Shown here in pieces: positions 42,904 to 51,590 of a stretch of 64,000 nt of DNA. The notes under the pieces are model-generated. The model did no database searches, was not told the DNA's origin, and saw only the letters and a list, made by a program, of their open reading frames with translations. The DNA is from Spizellomyces punctatus DAOM BR117 (taxonomy: Eukaryota). Every line of letters starts with the position of its first letter. Position 1 is the stretch's first letter. The position numbers and the translations under genes are program-made. The DNA lies in the NCBI GenBank assembly GCA_000182565.2, contig KQ257457.1; one strand, written 5' to 3'.

Positions 42904-43204
42904 CGTCTGCTTATTAACAAACTGATTCCGATTTTTGGTTTAGTGAATATGTTTGATCATCACTGTACGTAGGTATCGATTATAGCGGGCATATAAACCG
43001 ATTGTTACCAGTATCTCTAGAATATAAACATTCTCATCAGATACAGTTCATACCAGGATAGATTCGCAACTTCTATTATATAACTTGCAGCACATATCTA
43101 GAATGCTACGTCAACCATCCGCTCATCAAGAAAGGATAGTACAGATTCTCCTGAACATGAGTTATATCTCTTGTGTATTTTGTGCTACGAGACGTAAAAG
43201 CGAA

Positions 43205-43277
43205 GCCCGGTTAGCTCAATCGGCAGAGCGTGAGGCTCTTAACCTCAAGGTTGCGGGTTCGACCCCCGCATCGGGCT
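43205..43277 (+). tRNA. tRNA-Lys (anticodon CTT)
   Basis: Cloverleaf with acceptor GCCCGGT/ATCGGGC, anticodon arm TGAGG-CTCTTAA-CCTCA and T-arm GCGGG-TTCGACC-CCCGC; T-run terminator about 20 nt downstream. Confidence 0.97.
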
Positions 43278-43558
43278 GTAGATAAGTAGAACTGGTGATT
43301 TTTTTTTTCAACCTGCACTTATTGTATTTTTCGCGAGTGGCCGTCGTCAATCTGACAGTCAGAAAGTGTCGCGGCGGCACCTGTGATAGGGTAGGTACTA
43401 CTTTTATTTCGAATGTTCAACATGAAAAAAAATGTTCCATAACCACATACAAAAACGTGAGAAAAAAATCAAAGGATCACTACACGCCACCTAAAAATAT
43501 AACTATGTACAGAATATTCTCGCACCAAGGGATGCGATTACCGATGATCCATCATCGT

Positions 43559-45044
43559 CTAGTCAACCGAAACCACGGTCCCTTGTCCACTGATCCACTC
43601 ATGTCGCAGCACGTCATCCATGGTAGCACGTTTGGCCACATTCGGTTCTAATAGACAACTCAGAAGCCCAAGTAAAGGAGAGCTCCGCGAGAATCGCGGT
43701 GTAGCATATCGTCCCGTCATGATGCCGGCAGCATCCTTAAATGGTGTCTGGGAGAAGGCTAGTGTGTAGAGCAACACGCCTAGAGCCCACACATCCTGTT
43801 CAGGCCCCCGGTATTTTTCTCCACGAAGTATCTCTGGGGCGGCACAATGCATCGTTCCATAAAATCGATCAAAATAGTCGCGTTCGGAACGAGGTATGAA
43901 GGCAGCGTTACCGAAATCGATAAGCTTGACGTTCTTGTAGAGATCAATGACAATGTTCTCGTCCTTTATGTCGCGATGCACAATGTTGTTTTGGTGAAGA
44001 TACGCTACCGCTGTAGCGATTTGGGAGAAGATGTGACGAACATCGCGCTCTTGCATAAAAGGATTTTGCTCGATGCATTCAAACAAGTCCTGGGAAGCAC
44101 GTCGACTGGGTCTTCTTGCTTTGAGTGCAGCCGCAGTAGTTGTTGGTGAGGGCACTGTGTTTTCGTCTTTGAAGTTCACCCATGGTATACCATGTGTTTC
44201 CATCACCAGGTAAAAGAACTATGATAGGGAGAGAAATAAGTAAGATGTCATCACAGTTGCTGGGGGATGTGAAAATTCGCCTTACCTTCTTGTCTTCATA
44301 AAAGTCTAGATAACGGACAATGTTCTCATGATCCAGTCTCTTTAAGATGAAAATCTCTAGTGGCACGGTTCCCAGCTGCCGATCCCGCAACCAATTTTCC
44401 ACGGGTATTCTGTCCTTGAACATGAATTTAACCGCCACCGCCTGACCGTCCTCCAGCCGCCTCGCCGCCACGACAAATCCCGTCGCCCCAAAACCCAGCT
44501 CGCCCTGAATAGAGTACTTTGCCAAAAAGCGAGGGTGAAGTGGGTTGTTGGCAAATTCTCGCTCACTCATTGTTTGTGGTGATGCTGTATTTATTGGATC
44601 TGGTGCAGACCGGCCATAAACCGAGAACGACCGGGGTGTGGATACCTCAGTTACCTGATAGCTCCTGGGCATGGGTATACTGGTACGGGTGACGGTACAA
44701 GGTGCAGGTAACGGTGCATCTTCATCTAGCGACAATCCAAGACTGGAGCTACGTGGTGGCGGTGTTGCGCGTTCGGCAGAGCTCGGGACACCCGAGTAGT
44801 AACCTGAATCCACTCTTCTGCATTCCGGGGCTTGTACGCGGACACGACGTCCTGTCTGCCCGTTCTCAGAATGTAATGATTCTAGAGGATTTGAACTTAT
44901 CGCGGTAACGTTGGCATGCAGGACACGAGCGGCTCGTTTGCCCTCAGTTGACTCCAAGGCGCATGGATTTGCAGATGGGAGGACGGATTTTGCAACTGCT
45001 CCGTATGCGTGCATGCTGTTTGAATGAACCGAGACAACCGTCAT
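43559..45044 (-). CDS. Ser/Thr kinase with PAS-kinase/PIM-like catalytic domain, no PAS domains
   Basis: GELGFGATG, VAVKFM, WLRDRQLGTVPLEI, HRDIKDEN, IDFG, APEIL.GEKYRGPEQDVWALG; one intron at about 44220..44286. Confidence 0.92.
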
Positions 45045-47879
45045 GTTTACGTGGGATTGAAGGCAGTGTAAAGGAATGATAGGCTTTGTCGGAGTTATGA
45101 GCGGCAGACGGATGAATATTGGTCGAGAGCAAAATCAACTGAGAGCGGAACGAGAACCGCCGAAGGTTGCCAGATGCGGATGAGAAACCCTGTCACGCAG
45201 CAAGCGAACTGAGCAAGATGTGGGGAAGACGTAAAAAACGATGCCAATATAAGGGTCGCGAGGCGAAGCAGGCGGGATCAACGCTGGATTTCTAAAGTTT
45301 GAACCGGACCCAGAATTAGCAGATATTCTAGAGTTGTCCAGTGGTGCCACACTGAGTGATTGATGGTGCTCAATTTTGGGCGGACATTAAGAGTCGCCCG
45401 TCACTAAAAATAGCATAGTTTCCCATAAGCAACTAAACCCAAAAAGTAAGGGTTCAATTTGGCATCCACCATTCATTTTGCCCATATCGCCCACAGTCTC
45501 CATTTCACTGACCAAACCTCGACATACCTCTATCACAAGTGAACCCGCACGTTCTATTCTTAACGTGAACCGTGGTCGGTGGTGGTGAGGAGATAGCTAT
45601 GTTAAGTTGCCTTCACCAAGGCGAGCGAGGTGATGGGAGGACCAACAGGACGTTTAAAGAGACGGAATCCCTTTTATGAACTTTGAATTCGCTCAACAAC
45701 AGCGTGCCGAGTTGACTGGCAGGGAAGGGTGCGCGGTCGATATGACGCAGGGCCTACTGTGATTTTTTCTGTTTTTTAAAGGCCCAGCCGGCGGGCGTTT
45801 ACACTTGAACACGAGGCAGCCCTGATATCGATCTATCTTGCAAATGCCATCGAAACTCAAAAAAGAAACCTCTAGGGAAAACAAGAAAACGCAGAAGGAT
45901 GAAAAGGTCGAAGGCGAAGGCAAATCCCTCCGAACGCAGGTGACCACGTGAGTTCATTGCCAAACAAGTTGTTTTATTAGTGTCATGTGAATTAGAAAGG
46001 CGATCATTCGCTGAATTTGGGAATTTTTCATTCATTTTCAGCCAATCACTGTACTTGCATGTGATATCATGTGGGGTCATGGGATGGTTTCATTGCTTCA
46101 AAAGCCCCCCTTCGATCTGTCTCTCCAGCATTTTTGTGTGTTTGACCCTCTCCGGATCCTGGAGGGCCATTTCGTTTGTCGACGTACTAAAGTCCCTCTC
46201 CTCCAATCTACACAACATAATCAAGACGAGACAGACTTGGGTACATCTTGTATGAAGCAGGTTTACTATGCTCAGTAGTGCTTCCCTCTCCGCTGGGTCT
46301 TGATTTACCTGCAAATGGAGTACGGCCAACGATATAGGCACACTGTTGAACGGAGGGGAAACGGTGTAGTATGACGATGGTCGTTCATTTTGCATTGATT
46401 CATGGGATGCAGATATTCTCGCCTTGTCTATTGTTGATGCGACATTGTTGTTGTTTCCTTTGCATCAATTTGAAGCAAACAAGGTACACAGAGCAGCGCT
46501 TTTGTTTCGCACTACTGCTTTTGTTCAAAATATAGGTTTGCAACACAAAGTCTTCCAGCAATTTAGGCATCGCTCGGTTTGCCCATGTGCTTTGCGGTGT
46601 TGTATTATGTTGGGACATCTCTCAAACACGAAATATACATGACTAAGAAGTACTGCTTCCTTCTTTCTCATGTATATTTCTTACTTTGAACGTTTTGCGA
46701 GGTCAGATAGCGGCTTGAATCCTTTCTTGTACTCTAGTCGTTCAAAATCCTTGCAATATGGACATGTTCAGCCAGTGCTGTTCTGCGCCCCTCGATGTCT
46801 TTAGTGCGAGTGGCGCTTTGAATGCCTGGCACATTCCTCTTGACAGTATAAACCAAGGATGGGGTACGGAAATGAGCTTAGGTTAGGACATCAGGTAACT
46901 CGATAGCGGGTTGTACCACCGTCAAAGTGACTGCAACACCAGCATCAGGAAGCATGTCTTAGTCTGTAAAATGCGCGGCTATAGGTCGAGATACAACAAA
47001 GAGTAGCCAGTTGAGTGTCTAGGTGAAGACATTGCGGGATTGTTTTCAATAGTAGTGTATTAGGTGACCGAAACTGGCACTAGCTACTACACCAGGGAAT
47101 AAACCGGCGACAACCGGTTCGGAAAAGCTAACTAACTAAGCTACTACTAGGCAATTATACACGCAATACGTAACGGTTGTTCTAACCGGATAATTGCCCA
47201 CCACCACACGCGGTCCCTACTAGGCCTTGATCCAGAACTCTTGATGGCATTGAAGCCAGAGTCTTCGCAATATTGGGGAGACTCGCAAGCTGGGGGATTT
47301 TCAGTGACAAGGCTTGGAGACTAAAAAACTGCATGTCAGAAGATGACCAGATGATAAGAAATGATGCCATCGGTACATACCAAGCAAGCTCAACTAATGT
47401 GGCAGCATAATAGTAGGTTTTGTTATCGGATCCGATTGGTTGCCGCTGGTTCTGATCACGGTTGCTGTCGGGCGGTCAAAGAGGGCAAAGGCTCCCTTTT
47501 ATAGACCTTTGGCATGCGCCTCACCGCAGTTTAAAAAAAAAAACATTACAATACATGCCACGCCGCTTTGAGCGTTAGATGGGGGTGCTGATTATGCGAT
47601 ATGATTAACCGGATTAATCCGCATAATATTGGTCCTAGTGACATTTTCAATCACCTCCACACTATGTGCCTCACGGTTGTTATACCTAAATTTGTACAAT
47701 CTATGCCAAAACGTGTTGAGATTCGGGACCGTAACTCCCGCAATGGGCATTTTTCAGATCACTCTTTTTATGCGGAAACAACGATATGTGCGATCAGTGT
47801 GAATGGGCTGAGAATTGGGATCATACGAAAACGCATACAGTAAAAGGTTCGGCTAAAAAATTCCGTTACTAGGGAGGAA

Positions 47880-47952
47880 AGCCCGATGCGGGGGTCGAAC
47901 CCGCAACCTTGAGGTTAAGAGCCTCACGCTCTACCGATTGAGCTAACCGGGC
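47880..47952 (-). tRNA. tRNA-Lys (anticodon CTT), second copy
   Basis: Reverse complement is identical to 43205..43277 except one D-loop base (GGTAG vs GGCAG); T6 terminator downstream. Confidence 0.97.
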
Positions 47953-48118: not shown

Positions 48119-48660
48119 TTATCCCAGATGCAATATCGCATCCACAAGATCAAACCCGTTATTCCTCAAGGCCTTGATGGCTGTATTCCGATCTACACCC
48201 AGTTGTGCTATACATATACAGTCAGACCACAATTTTCATGACGGTATATTGACAATGCATTAGTTGAAACAATACCCATCAAAACCTCAATATCCCTTGG
48301 ATGACACCCATCTGGATTTTCATCCCTTGGTCCAAGGGCTAGGAGCGTCGTACAGACTGGGAAATCTGCGAATGTGCTTGTTGGAGATAGTTTACGTCCT
48401 GCGTGGACTTTTCTCATATGAGCCGGAGTGCTTGAGATTTGAGCTTGGAAGAGCTTACTCAGAGTCAGTTTTGTTGGTGGGATTTGGAGCGTTTTTGATA
48501 CTACTGGGTGGATGAGGGCTGTTGAGTGGTGGCAGAACTGAAGGTTCAGTTAAGCAGGGATCATCGTATGAATCCTCAAGAGAACGACTGGCGCAGCCTG
48601 TACCTCTTGAATATCCTTGCCGTGCTTGACACGTACAGTATGCAAGGTTTCGGCGGACAT
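48119..48660 (-). CDS. 118-aa ubiquitin-like + UBA (NAC-alpha/HYPK-type) protein, four exons (only a fragment appears in the ORF track)
   Basis: Exons 48660-48604, 48537-48459, 48407-48276 and 48207-48119 sum to 357 nt, all GT-AG. UBL TVRVKHGK…LQIPPTKLTLIHAGRKL…LLALG; UBA DIEVLMAQLGVDRNTAIKALRNNGFDLVDAILHL. Confidence 0.85.
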
Positions 48661-48799
48661 GGTTACGCGGTGGATGAACACACGCTCCTTGGTTAACTCA
48701 CGAGGCTCTGATGGGGGCTGACGTAACAAGCTCCGACTTTCGACGGCATGCTGGAATTACACCACGGAACTGATCCAACAGATAATTCATCAATAAGCC

Positions 48800-51590
48800 A
48801 TGCCAAACTACAAACCCCTTATCCAACACTGCCGCGCCCTTTTATCACTTCACCACGACTTTGCTCGAAAATCCTTCGGGACTGGTCTAGCTGGAATACA
48901 TGATGTAGGATCGACCAAAACCGATGTGCAAACTGATGACGACGGGATTGGATTGGACTTTAAAAACCCAGTTGTGAGAACTGAGGAAGAGATTTTGGAT
49001 GATTACTGTAAAGAGCATCAGGTCACAGATGACGCTGAGCGAACGTTTCTGGAGGAAGTTTTCAATGGGTGCGTGAGACAGCGGAAGGCATTAGAGGTAT
49101 TTTTTGCCTTGCATTCGCTGGTTATGTAAAATGTTCATTGAAGTTATTCTGTATGATATTTTTATGAAAGGATAGGTAGCACTTTTTTTGTTTTATACAA
49201 CAACGGGAGGACGGTACCTTCGAAATGAGTACAATCTCTTTGCAGGTTGGATGGCACCCGCTGAATTTCTACCCTTAATCCGGCCTAATGTAATTACCCC
49301 TCAGCACTGTTTTACCTGGCACTCTTTCGCTTGGAAGATCTAAGTTTCCCGAAGCTCCGCGCCATTCTATTGTCATATGATCCCGCAAAGATGGCACGAT
49401 TTGTGGGGTTCCTATTTGATGATGCTATGCTGCAGGGAAAGCTACGGGAAGGATGGGCGGAGATTTTGGATGCAGAGTGGGTAAAGGTACGGTATTAGGA
49501 GGACCGGAGTCCATGGAGGGGTGCTCACGTTTATTATCGATCCAGGAGCGGATGATTGATCCTCTTTTGAGGAACATGGAGAATGGCATAAGCCTTGCTG
49601 GAGAGCTGTGCGACAAGGCGGAAAAGGGAATGGTTCCGAAGAAGGGAACAAAAGCTCCTACAGGTATTGTATCTCTCCTCTGATCTGCGTAAAAGACGTT
49701 TCTCATGTTTCGGTCGGCTGAACAGAACCGGAACCGTTTCTACTCACACGACCAAGGCCGAGAGCATTACCTGAACCAACTGAAATAGTGTCCAATGTGA
49801 TGAAGGTACGGTGTTATCTGGCGCGTTCGATTATCCTTCGTCACTGATCGATGATGGCAGGCTCGTCCTGTTCCGAGATCAGTCTATCAGGGAAGCGGCG
49901 AGCGCGAAGCGCTGGAAAAGATTAAAGCTGAAAAGCGGGAGCAGTTACGAGTATGTGATTTTCTCATTCCTGAAATTACGCAGAATTTGCTACTTACAAA
50001 ATAATGATGAGTATAGCAAATCTATCTTAAAGCTTCTCAGACCCAATTCAGTGTCGCAATCCGCAAACCGTTGTCCAAAACCGGAACTCTTCGGGAAGAA
50101 CAAAACTCTCCACCCCCGCGCACCCACCTGCACAGACCAGTACCCGCGAATTTGCGCAGCCACGTTCCCGTCAAGCTCACCGCTGCTGCTATCTTGCGTG
50201 AAGATGCCTTAGTGAGACGGCAAAAACAGGAAGAAGAAGCTTGGCTAAATGAAGTGGAGATGGGATTGAGAGATGGTGGGGACTTTAAAGAGTGGAGAGA
50301 GGACGCGAGAGCTAAAGGTAGATTGAATTCTTCGGGACTTGTTCAAACTGGTTGTGTATTGACGCGACTTAAAAGAACAAGAAGAACGTCGAATCGAACT
50401 GGAACGACGACACCTGGAAATACAGCTCATTCATGAAGAAGCCTATGAGGCAAAGCAAGAACTTCTCAAAGAAAACCGGTACGGCATCACTTAACCATTT
50501 ACTTCAGCGCGATAAAATCTAATTGAATATTTAGGGAACGTGCAGCCGAGATTCTGGCAGAACGAGAATCTCTCCGCATGCAGGCTGAAGCTACCCGAAA
50601 ACAACAGGAATTGCTCAATAAGAAAATAGTAGAAGAAGTGCAGGAGATCCAGGAATGTGTACAGAAGGCGAAACAAAAAGTTGTTGAGAATAACTCGCGG
50701 AAGGGTACGATGCCATTCGTTATTTCCCAAAGTCAATTAAATCATTGACGTTTCTCTAGCGGCGGAGATTATCCAGCAAAAAGTGGCCTTAAAAGAACAA
50801 GCAGAGAGAGATGCAGAAGAGGAACGAGCACGTAAAGCTGAACTCATTGCACAGATTCGACTGTTGGAGCGGTGCGTGCCGCCTGTGGGATCCATTGTGA
50901 AAAGTGTTGATCCCACCGAAACGTCCGGATTGGGATTGCTAGGTGAAATGTCACTGGTGGAGGTATGTGGGCTGCGCTTAAGACTCCCTGAACTTCTGGA
51001 CTCACGAGGGATGATTCTGGCAGCTCCAAGAACGTCTGGTGCTTGCTAAGCACCATCACCAGGAACAAGAGACTCATCGGCGGCAAGAAATCCGGACACA
51101 AAAGCAGACCCGACTAGATCTCATCACTCAAAAGCTCGCTGAAATTGATCGCGAACGCGAAGAGCGCCGGCGAAGGCGGAAGCAGCGCGAGAGAGAAGGA
51201 GTATCACGCTCTACATCTGCGTTAAGCACTTCTTCTGAGGATACAAGAGACCGCGAGACAGACCCGGTTCTTCTTCAACTGCGTAAAAAGCTCTCAGCCA
51301 AACGAGCAGCCAGACTGGGCGCATCTCAGAAGCGTCCTTCACAGACCCTCACGACCCCATCTACGTCACGTCCGTCACTGGGATCTACCACCCCTTCATC
51401 ATTAGATTGGCAGGAACTGGATGATGCTGAGCGAGAATATGAGCGCAAACGGCGGGTGCTTGATCAACCACGGATAAGAATTTTGAAAGAGATGGAAGGG
51501 GAGATGGATACTTTGAGTGAGGGAATAGACGAGGACAATGCGAATACTGAGTCGGGCTGGGGAATTGAGCCGGTTGCCGTGGTCGTTTGA
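48800..51590 (+). CDS. CFAP99: Cilia- and flagella-associated protein 99
   Basis: FLEEVFNGC, YLALFRLEDLSF…KMARFVGFLFD, PEPFLLT.PRPR, VKLTAAAILRE, ELIAQIR and GLLGEMSLVEL.ERL match recalled CFAP99 motifs; coiled-coil. Confidence 0.8.

What the first reader, a model, noticed from the sequence alone, without database searches (positions are those of the whole stretch)
48119..48660. Hidden four-exon gene for a minimal UBL-UBA protein
Seen: four exons, each under 60 codons, splice in frame to MSAETLHTVRVKHGKDIQEFCHHSTALIHPVVSKTLQIPPTKLTLIHAGRKLSPTSTFADFPVCTTLLALGPRDENPDGCHPRDIEVLMAQLGVDRNTAIKALRNNGFDLVDAILHLG. Splicing intron 2 creates the ubiquitin-like LIHAGRKL. The C-terminus resembles the NAC-alpha/HYPK UBA rather than Rad23/Dsk2 UBAs. 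Known shuttles (Rad23, Dsk2, Ddi1) are much larger with central domains. Inference: a 118-aa adaptor that may link NatA/NAC-type co-translational machinery or ubiquitin/NEDD8 to the proteasome; I do not recognise it as a named family.
Basis: partly seen in the sequence, partly recalled or inferred. Interest (0 to 1): 0.7.

Follow-up and report, generated by a model that had tools for sequence, protein, structure and literature searches.

The report
Ancient ubiquitin-like/NAC-arm adaptor protein family
A tiny chytrid-fungus gene, already annotated but never characterised, joins a ubiquitin-like domain directly to a copy of the docking tip of the ribosome chaperone NAC, and belongs to an apparently undescribed family shared with animals and distant flagellated protists that may link protein-maturation enzymes or chaperones to the proteasome.

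Summary
The four-exon model is exact. It is not hidden: it is Spizellomyces punctatus SPPG_04997 (XP_016607649.1, identical 118 aa; a 135-aa intron-2-retained model also exists). RNA reads show intron 1; introns 2 and 3 rest on annotation, read depth and the family alignment. AlphaFold2 (pLDDT 94.7) gives a beta-grasp plus a three-helix bundle. The UBA is NAC-alpha type, not HYPK or Rad23 type, and the acidic linker also aligns with NAC-alpha. The protein belongs to a family I could not find described (140 sequences held, 80 non-redundant): chytrids, Syssomonas, Hemimastix, a heterolobosean, cryptists, Ancoracysta and many animals. UBL-UBA spacing is invariant (14 residues, 140 of 140). The N-terminal add-on varies: zf-MYND (animals, Ancoracysta), an Hsp70/90-type TPR (cryptists) or none. 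NAC-alpha residues that bind NatA/B/D and SRP54 are mostly kept (D205, V207, I210, M211-like); the MGF ubiquitin-binding loop is absent (0 of 140). Best reading (0.35): a rigid, ribosome-free mimic of the NAC-alpha arm that couples NAC clients or chaperone complexes to the proteasome. No binding was shown. New variant of the UBL-UBA kind; interest 0.58.

The parts
48604..48660 (-). Exon 1 (codons 1-19; UBL strands 1-2)
   Evidence: NCBI model
48538..48603 (-). Intron 1, 66 nt, GT..AG
   Evidence: RNA joint 48537/48604, 4 reads, 3 starts
48459..48537 (-). Exon 2 (codons 20-46; UBL helix and strand 3)
   Evidence: frame test against S. 'palustris'
48408..48458 (-). Intron 2, 51 nt, in frame and stop-free; retained in the 135-aa NCBI model
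   Evidence: no family member has an insertion here; joint not listed
48276..48407 (-). Exon 3 (codons 46-90; rest of UBL, linker, UBA helix 1)
48208..48275 (-). Intron 3, 68 nt, GT..AG
   Evidence: depth dip; joint not listed
48119..48207 (-). Exon 4 (codons 90-118 and stop; UBA helices 2-3)
   Evidence: aligns without gaps to human NAC-alpha 184-213
48331..48645 (-). Ubiquitin-like beta-grasp domain, residues 6-71, basic (net +4), no C-terminal GG
48301..48330 (-). Fixed-length linker, residues 72-81; acidic in the family and homologous to the NAC-alpha stretch before its UBA
48125..48300 (-). NAC-alpha-type UBA three-helix bundle, residues 82-117
48661..48799 (.). 139-nt gap to the head-to-head neighbour (CFAP99/FAP99 homologue, + strand from 48800); leaves no room for an upstream MYND exon
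   Evidence: none of the 16 zf-MYND matches in the genome is on this contig

Best explanation
SPPG_04997 encodes a compact two-domain adaptor. [quoted passage not shown] It lacks the NAC dimerisation domain and the Naa15 contact helix, so it would act off the ribosome. The UBA would bind a NAC-type client through helix 3, and the basic UBL, fixed close by, would dock on the proteasome, most likely Rpn1 as BAG1, USP14 and UBLCP1 do. The client or its cargo would thus be tethered to the proteasome without ubiquitin. In other lineages a MYND finger or TPR clamp would tie the same module to the Hsp70/Hsp90/NAC chaperone network. Shown: gene, folds, NAC-alpha type of the UBA, family, fixed spacing. 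Inferred: every binding partner and the function.
For: Family profile versus PDB: NAC-alpha E 1.8e-11, archaeal NAC 2.4e-7, HYPK 1.7e-5. Family UBA HMM scores the genome's own NAC-alpha 52 bits and its HYPK 11 bits, the latter read across an intron. NAC-alpha and HYPK are separate genes in this genome, so this is a third, distinct gene. Interface residues from paper passages (PMC13356037: D205, V207, M211; PMC12992615: E177, D180, L183, D205, I210) map without gaps to D109, V111, L115, H81, D84, V87, I114. In 140 rows: hydrophobic at 111 in 137, at 114 in 140, at 115 in 134; D at 84 in 127; D/N/E at 109 in 120. UBL: I44 and G47 equivalents kept (I/V and G in 140 of 140), family net charge median +5. 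Best single-UBL hit of the profile is BAG1 (E 1.2e-5), which binds Rpn1 T2 (PMC12922752, passages). Add-on domains point to chaperones: the Palpitomonas TPR keeps HOP TPR1 K8/N12/N43/K73/R77 (their clamp role is recalled). MYND fingers keep the PHD2 PXLE-binding positions (R 26, Q 30, K/R 28 of 31; PMC6916684), and NACA is a PXLE ligand of PHD2 (PMC12813663, passage).
Against: No interaction was tested. Conservation at the D205 position shows a D/N/S/T/C pattern (D in only 52 of 80) that fits a helix cap as well as a salt bridge, and some helix-3 hydrophobics may be core. N208, an SRP54 contact (PMC10462106, passage), is D in 134 of 140, as acidic as HYPK and archaeal NAC, so specificity may differ. 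E177 is H here. The UBL cannot be placed in the BAG1 subgroup by structure: BAG6, plant BAG1, ubiquitin, SUMO and Dsk2 tie within 1 Z unit. The S. punctatus protein has lost several family-conserved residues (K44T, K48A, E72P, E77P). The MYND positions are probably generic to MYND fingers (not controlled). A universal NAC-linked role does not explain why no named member comes from yeasts, land plants, insects or mammals (only 29 of 140 rows are named).
Confidence: 0.35

Rival explanations
1. A chaperone-linked cofactor specialised for cilia/flagella (assembly or turnover of axonemal proteins), with the NAC-type UBA repurposed for a non-NAC partner. Compatible with part of the best explanation.
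For: Seven of the eight named non-animal carriers are flagellated or zoosporic (names; life styles recalled; heterolobosean BB2 uncertain). The gene is head-to-head, 139 nt apart, with a FAP99/CFAP99 homologue (E 9e-5). The top PDB hit of a member's MYND is ZMYND10, and SPAG1 and RPAP3 are among the TPR hits; their role in dynein assembly is recalled.
Against: Head-to-head pairs are common in a 24-Mb genome and synteny was not tested. MYND and TPR hits are generic. Absence from non-flagellated lineages was not tested by a profile search. No named member from ciliates, green algae or mammals, which have motile cilia.
Confidence: 0.25
2. A minimal ubiquitin or NEDD8 shuttle of the Rad23/Dsk2/NUB1/HYPK kind: the UBA binds the chain and the UBL binds the proteasome.
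For: UBL-UBA order as in shuttles; top Foldseek hits are ubiquilin UBLs; HYPK UBA binds NEDD8 (bioRxiv 10.1101/780379, passages) and its D94 and L113 equivalents are kept (127 and 140 of 140).
Against: No [ML]G[FY] loop (0 of 140). NAC-alpha UBA is stated not to bind ubiquitin (PMC13356037). The kept HYPK residues are the structural ones; the surface ones, E101 and G118, are Q91 and F108 here. The invariant 14-residue span leaves no flexible reach, unlike shuttles.
Confidence: 0.15
3. The two domains act as one self-contained surface (closed UBL-UBA unit or homo-oligomer) that binds a partner unrelated to NAC clients or the proteasome.
For: Invariant spacing; conserved acidic linker beside a basic UBL (net -4 versus +5); linker predicted ordered (pLDDT about 92; pTM 0.73); family-specific conserved residues N97 and D112 differ from NAC-alpha.
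Against: Linker length and acidity may simply be inherited from NAC-alpha. The search favours members with like spacing. Interdomain contacts could not be inspected.
Confidence: 0.15
4. In Spizellomyces the gene is a decaying remnant that has lost its N-terminal add-on and its function.
For: No MYND or TPR; loss of K44, K48, E72 and E77; intron-retained model on record.
Against: Transcribed and spliced; 66 of 72 residues identical in S. 'palustris' with silent-biased differences; orthologue in Phlyctochytrium; add-on-less forms also in Hemimastix, BB2, Syssomonas and a rotifer.
Confidence: 0.07

Closest known systems
NAC-alpha (NACA/Egd2) C-terminal arm and UBA
   Same: UBA 43% identical to the genome's own NAC-alpha over 37 residues (family median 41%); preceding acidic stretch aligns; D205, V207, I210, D180 kept and M211 hydrophobic.
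   Different: No NAC dimerisation domain, no QQAQLAAAE-type contact helix (0 of 140), N208 is D, and a UBL is fused in front.
HYPK (NatA regulator; NEDD8-binding UBA)
   Same: Same Pfam class (PF19026); small protein ending in the UBA; acidic residue at the N208 position.
   Different: Weaker match (E 1.7e-5 versus 1.8e-11); a beta-grasp replaces HYPK's long Naa15-binding helix; E101/G118 not kept; the genome has its own HYPK.
Rad23 / Dsk2-ubiquilin / Ddi1 / NUB1 UBL-UBA shuttles
   Same: N-terminal non-conjugatable UBL with I44-type patch, C-terminal UBA.
   Different: No central Sti1/XPCB/protease domain, no flexible linker, no MGF loop, UBA of another class.
BAG1 (also USP14, UBLCP1): UBL-bearing proteasome cofactors
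   Same: Basic UBL ending in a hydrophobic-Gly strand; BAG1 is the best single-UBL profile hit and an Atlas structure neighbour of a member; BAG1 couples Hsp70 to Rpn1 without ubiquitin (PMC12922752).
   Different: No BAG or catalytic domain; structural scores do not single out BAG1.
PHD2/EGLN1 MYND finger (binds PXLE in p23 and NACA)
   Same: Animal and Ancoracysta members carry a MYND finger with R32/Q47/W51/K55-equivalent residues.
   Different: Absent from the Spizellomyces protein; no hydroxylase; specificity for PXLE not shown.

Membership tests
Ubiquitin-like (beta-grasp) domain | Beta-grasp fold | tested here: met
   AF2 pLDDT 94.7; Foldseek E 2.8e-6 to UBQLN3 UBL; VIA Z 10.3, rmsd 2.1 A over 71 residues to BAG6 UBL, tied with many UBLs
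Type I conjugatable UBL modifier | Di-glycine after strand 5 | tested here: not met
   GG in 0 of 140
NAC-alpha/HYPK-class UBA (PF19026) | Pfam score above cut-off; three-helix bundle | tested here: met
   31.9 bits versus 27; helices 82-92, 96-105, 110-117
NAC-alpha | NAC dimerisation domain and contact helix | tested here: not met
   No NAC domain by Pfam or in the model; contact-helix motif 0 of 140
NAC-alpha | Client-binding residues of the UBA (D180, L183, D205, V207, N208, I210, M211, E177) | tested here: inconclusive
   D180, D205, V207, I210 identical; L183 and M211 conservative; N208 to D and E177 to H
NAC-alpha | Binding to Naa15, Naa25, Naa40 or SRP54 | not tested
HYPK | Long Naa15-binding helix before the UBA | tested here: not met
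   The region before the UBA is a beta-grasp
HYPK | Surface NEDD8-binding residues E101, G118 | tested here: not met
   Q91 (123 of 140 in family) and F108 here; G in 78 of 140 family rows
Rad23/Dsk2/Ddi1 shuttles | Canonical UBA with MGF-type loop (criterion recalled) | tested here: not met
   0 of 140
Rad23/Dsk2/Ddi1 shuttles | Long flexible linker or central domain | tested here: not met
   G71 to D84 span is 14 residues in 140 of 140, and 80 of 80 non-redundant
Rad23/Dsk2/Ddi1 shuttles | Ubiquitin-chain and proteasome binding | not testable with these tools
   Needs binding assays
BAG1/USP14/UBLCP1-type Rpn1-binding UBL | UBL closer to these than to other UBLs | tested here: inconclusive
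   BAG1 E 1.2e-5, BAG6 2.6e-5, ubiquilin-1 3.4e-5; Z scores tied
Hsp70/90-binding TPR clamp (cryptist members only) | K8, N12, N43, K73, R77 of HOP TPR1 (set recalled) | tested here: met
   All five kept in Palpitomonas P0094 (alignment); by eye three kept, one K-to-R and one lost in P0067

The most novel reading that the evidence does not exclude
An ancient (possibly last-eukaryotic-ancestor) family of free-standing NAC-arm mimics: a third user, beside NAC-alpha and HYPK, of the surface that recruits NatA/NatB/NatD/SRP. It would compete for these enzymes off the ribosome and deliver them or their clients to the proteasome without ubiquitin. In animals its MYND finger could dock on the PXLE motif of NAC-alpha itself, giving NAC a second UBA and a proteasome handle.
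Probability: 0.2. Interest if true: 0.85.

Novelty: new variant of a known kind. Interest (0 to 1): 0.58.

Why it matters
Papers of 2024-2026 show the NAC-alpha UBA as the hub for which NatA/E, NatB, NatD and SRP compete (PMC11372111, PMC12716425, PMC12992615, PMC13356037; passages read). Only NAC-alpha and HYPK figure there as carriers of this UBA class. A third conserved carrier, fused to a proteasome-type UBL and present from chytrids and protists to amphibians and the coelacanth, would be a candidate regulator of that competition or a link from it to degradation. At 118 residues it is easy to express, and the key residues to mutate are already known from NAC-alpha. If it proves ciliary, it adds an unrecognised cofactor to flagellar protein quality control.

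Tried and rejected
Complex prediction of the UBA with the organism's own SRP54 NG domain: tool not available, nothing folded, no verdict. ESM Atlas with the 118-aa protein: no usable hit; with an animal member it returned only the family's own unnamed cluster (65 members, mostly Mollusca). Run search: no RNA holder listed; contigs of X1-X3 (kind unknown, one sample) run unspliced through the gene and intergenic DNA without differences, so they confirm the DNA letters and say nothing on splicing. Viral contigs: 43 pattern matches, none a relative. NCBIfam: only sub-threshold archaeal NAC. Tree of 22 members: 3 of 19 branches well supported, so no order of domain gain or loss and no vertical descent is shown. 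Pfam HTH_36 and UBA_SIK3 matches are below cut-off and rejected. 46 of 149 phmmer hits (polyubiquitins, NAC-alpha pieces, tandem-UBA proteins, UBA-only fragments) were dropped before the family counts, as were the two intron-retaining Spizellomyces models. Literature searches found no description of the family: MYND + ubiquitin-like domain + UBA domain, 3 unrelated papers by listing; SPPG_04997, 0; six member identifiers, 0; Ciona MYND zinc fingers, 0; PF19026/IPR044034 terms, 4 unrelated by listing. These cover open-licence main texts only; no supplements were searched and subscription papers are missing. Earlier scan notes: nothing similar; two unrelated notes on this window.

Full report
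1. Observation. The four exons and three GT..AG introns give exactly the quoted 118-aa protein. Many other open splice models exist between the same start and stop (10,363; 886 with consensus-like sites), so the model needed outside support. The genome is Spizellomyces punctatus DAOM BR117 and the gene is annotated as SPPG_04997: XP_016607649.1 is identical to the finding, and XP_016607650.1 (135 aa) retains the in-frame intron 2. UniRef names it only by its NAC-alpha-like UBA. RNA run X6 (about 6% read, reads up to 60 nt) shows the intron-1 joint in 4 reads. Joints for introns 2 and 3 were not listed, although intron 3 lies in the best-covered part; depth falls to 6.8 in that bin between 28.7 and 15.3, as splicing predicts. 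The family alignment has no insertion at intron 2 (140 of 140) and keeps the spacing across intron 3 (139 of 140). The S. 'palustris' model reads exon 2 in another frame; 6 of its 9 differences there can be silent in the proposed frame, 5 unambiguously, against 32% expected (p 0.04 and 0.13).

2. Folds. AlphaFold2 with 60 sequences gives pLDDT 94.7 and pTM 0.73: a beta-grasp (6-70) and three helices (82-117). An unnamed longer member gives the same elements behind a mostly low-confidence N-terminus. Foldseek and VIA-align match the N-half to UBLs (UBQLN3 E 2.8e-6; BAG6 Z 10.3, plant BAG1 Z 10.2, many ties). Pfam ubiquitin scores only E 0.2, which explains why annotation missed it. The C-half passes Pfam UBA_HYPK. 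By family profile it is nearest NAC-alpha (E 1.8e-11), then archaeal NAC (2.4e-7) and human HYPK (1.7e-5). The genome has separate NAC-alpha and HYPK genes.

3. Family. phmmer over 1.84 billion representatives gave 162 hits at E up to 0.001, of which 150 were listed. Of the 149 besides the query, 103 have an adjacent UBL and UBA; with later hits the set is 140 rows, 80 non-redundant at 60%. Only 29 of 140 rows carry names: Spizellomyces, Phlyctochytrium, Syssomonas, Hemimastix, Heterolobosea sp. BB2, Teleaulax, Palpitomonas, Ancoracysta, Capitella, two scallops, several echinoderms, a bdelloid rotifer, Ciona ('zinc finger protein (MYND)-8'), Latimeria, Pleurodeles and Engystomops. This span suggests great age (inference; the tree is mostly unresolved). 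The distance from the UBL's last glycine to the UBA's first aspartate is 14 residues in every row; the search may favour like spacing. The linker is acidic and aligns with the stretch before the NAC-alpha UBA, so the protein looks like a UBL fused onto the NAC-alpha arm tip. N-terminal add-ons differ: a complete zf-MYND in 31-32 rows with partial tails in 31 more, a TPR in 6 rows from two cryptist-like clusters, and none in chytrids, Hemimastix, BB2, Syssomonas and the rotifer-like group. The Spizellomyces gene has no room for a MYND exon: a FAP99/CFAP99 homologue starts 139 nt upstream on the other strand.

4. Mechanism. Passages read state that NAC-alpha UBA recruits NatA, NatB, NatD and SRP54 through one face, does not bind ubiquitin, and needs D205, V207 and M211 for NatB (PMC13356037; PMC12716425; PMC11372111; PMC12830823). 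E177, D180, L183, D205 and I210 are predicted NatD contacts (PMC12992615), and D205 and N208 contact SRP (PMC10462106). These map without gaps onto D109, V111, L115, H81, D84, V87, I114 and D112. Most are kept across the family. Against: D205 varies like a helix cap, N208 is almost always D, and E177 is not kept here. The UBL keeps the I44/G47 equivalents in all rows, is basic, has no GG, and scores marginally best against BAG1, which binds Rpn1 T2 and feeds Hsp70 clients to the proteasome (PMC12922752). UBLCP1 uses lysines of its UBL for Rpn1 (PMC5451543). The Spizellomyces protein lacks two of the family's conserved lysines. The add-ons hint at chaperones: the Palpitomonas TPR keeps the five HOP TPR1 clamp positions (set recalled), and the MYND fingers keep the positions PHD2 uses for PXLE motifs of p23 (PMC6916684) and NACA (PMC12813663), though these may be generic. 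I therefore favour a rigid, ribosome-free NAC-arm mimic that couples NAC clients or chaperone complexes to the proteasome (0.35). Rivals: ciliary chaperone cofactor (0.25), ubiquitin/NEDD8 shuttle (0.15; no MGF loop, and HYPK's surface NEDD8 residues from bioRxiv 10.1101/780379 are not kept), self-contained unit with another partner (0.15), remnant (0.07).

5. Comparison and novelty. It works like a UBL-bearing adaptor but fails membership of the Rad23/Dsk2/Ddi1 shuttles, NAC-alpha and HYPK on tested features. Five literature searches found no description of the family; they miss subscription papers and all supplements, where expression data for members could lie. All papers were seen as passages or search listings, none in whole.

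6. Verdict. A real, annotated but uncharacterised gene, and a member of an apparently undescribed, widespread family with a specific, cheaply testable link to the NAC hub. Function is inferred only. New variant of a known kind; interest 0.58.

Noticed in passing
window 48800 to about 51600 (+): Head-to-head neighbour is a FAP99/CFAP99 homologue (one exon matches FAP99 at E 9e-5 and CFAP99 at E 3e-4); start codons are 139 nt apart, so the promoter is probably shared.
   Followed up: partly
window 47052-47667: Dispersed repeat of about 615 nt; its right end matches at least 40 places, this one included, at 89-96% identity on many contigs. Imperfect terminal inverted repeats by eye suggest a MITE-like element.
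   Followed up: partly
window 47880-47952 (-): tRNA-Lys(CTT) 166 nt past the stop codon, on the same strand; a second tRNA-Lys(CTT) lies at 43204-43278.
   Followed up: no
window 49086-49518: RNA reads (depth up to 25) lie in the same mate orientation as those of the minus-strand gene although the CFAP99 frames are on the plus strand, with a sharp end at 49086: possibly an antisense transcript.
   Followed up: no
P0003 (Spizellomyces sp. 'palustris' SpCBS45565_g04815): The orthologue's public model is mis-spliced: it reads through intron 1, takes exon 2 in the wrong frame and keeps intron 2.
   Followed up: yes
L005:1855-2190 (-), own NAC-alpha: The chytrid NAC-alpha N-terminus keeps a PXLE motif, the type bound by PHD2's MYND finger in mammals.
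   Followed up: no
P0070, P0079, P0093, P0113, P0123, P0137: Unnamed proteins with tandem repeats of the NAC-alpha-type UBA, some beside RING-like fingers; origin unknown.
   Followed up: no
window 43559-45134 (-): Protein kinase gene in at least two exons (Pfam Pkinase E 1e-41).
   Followed up: no
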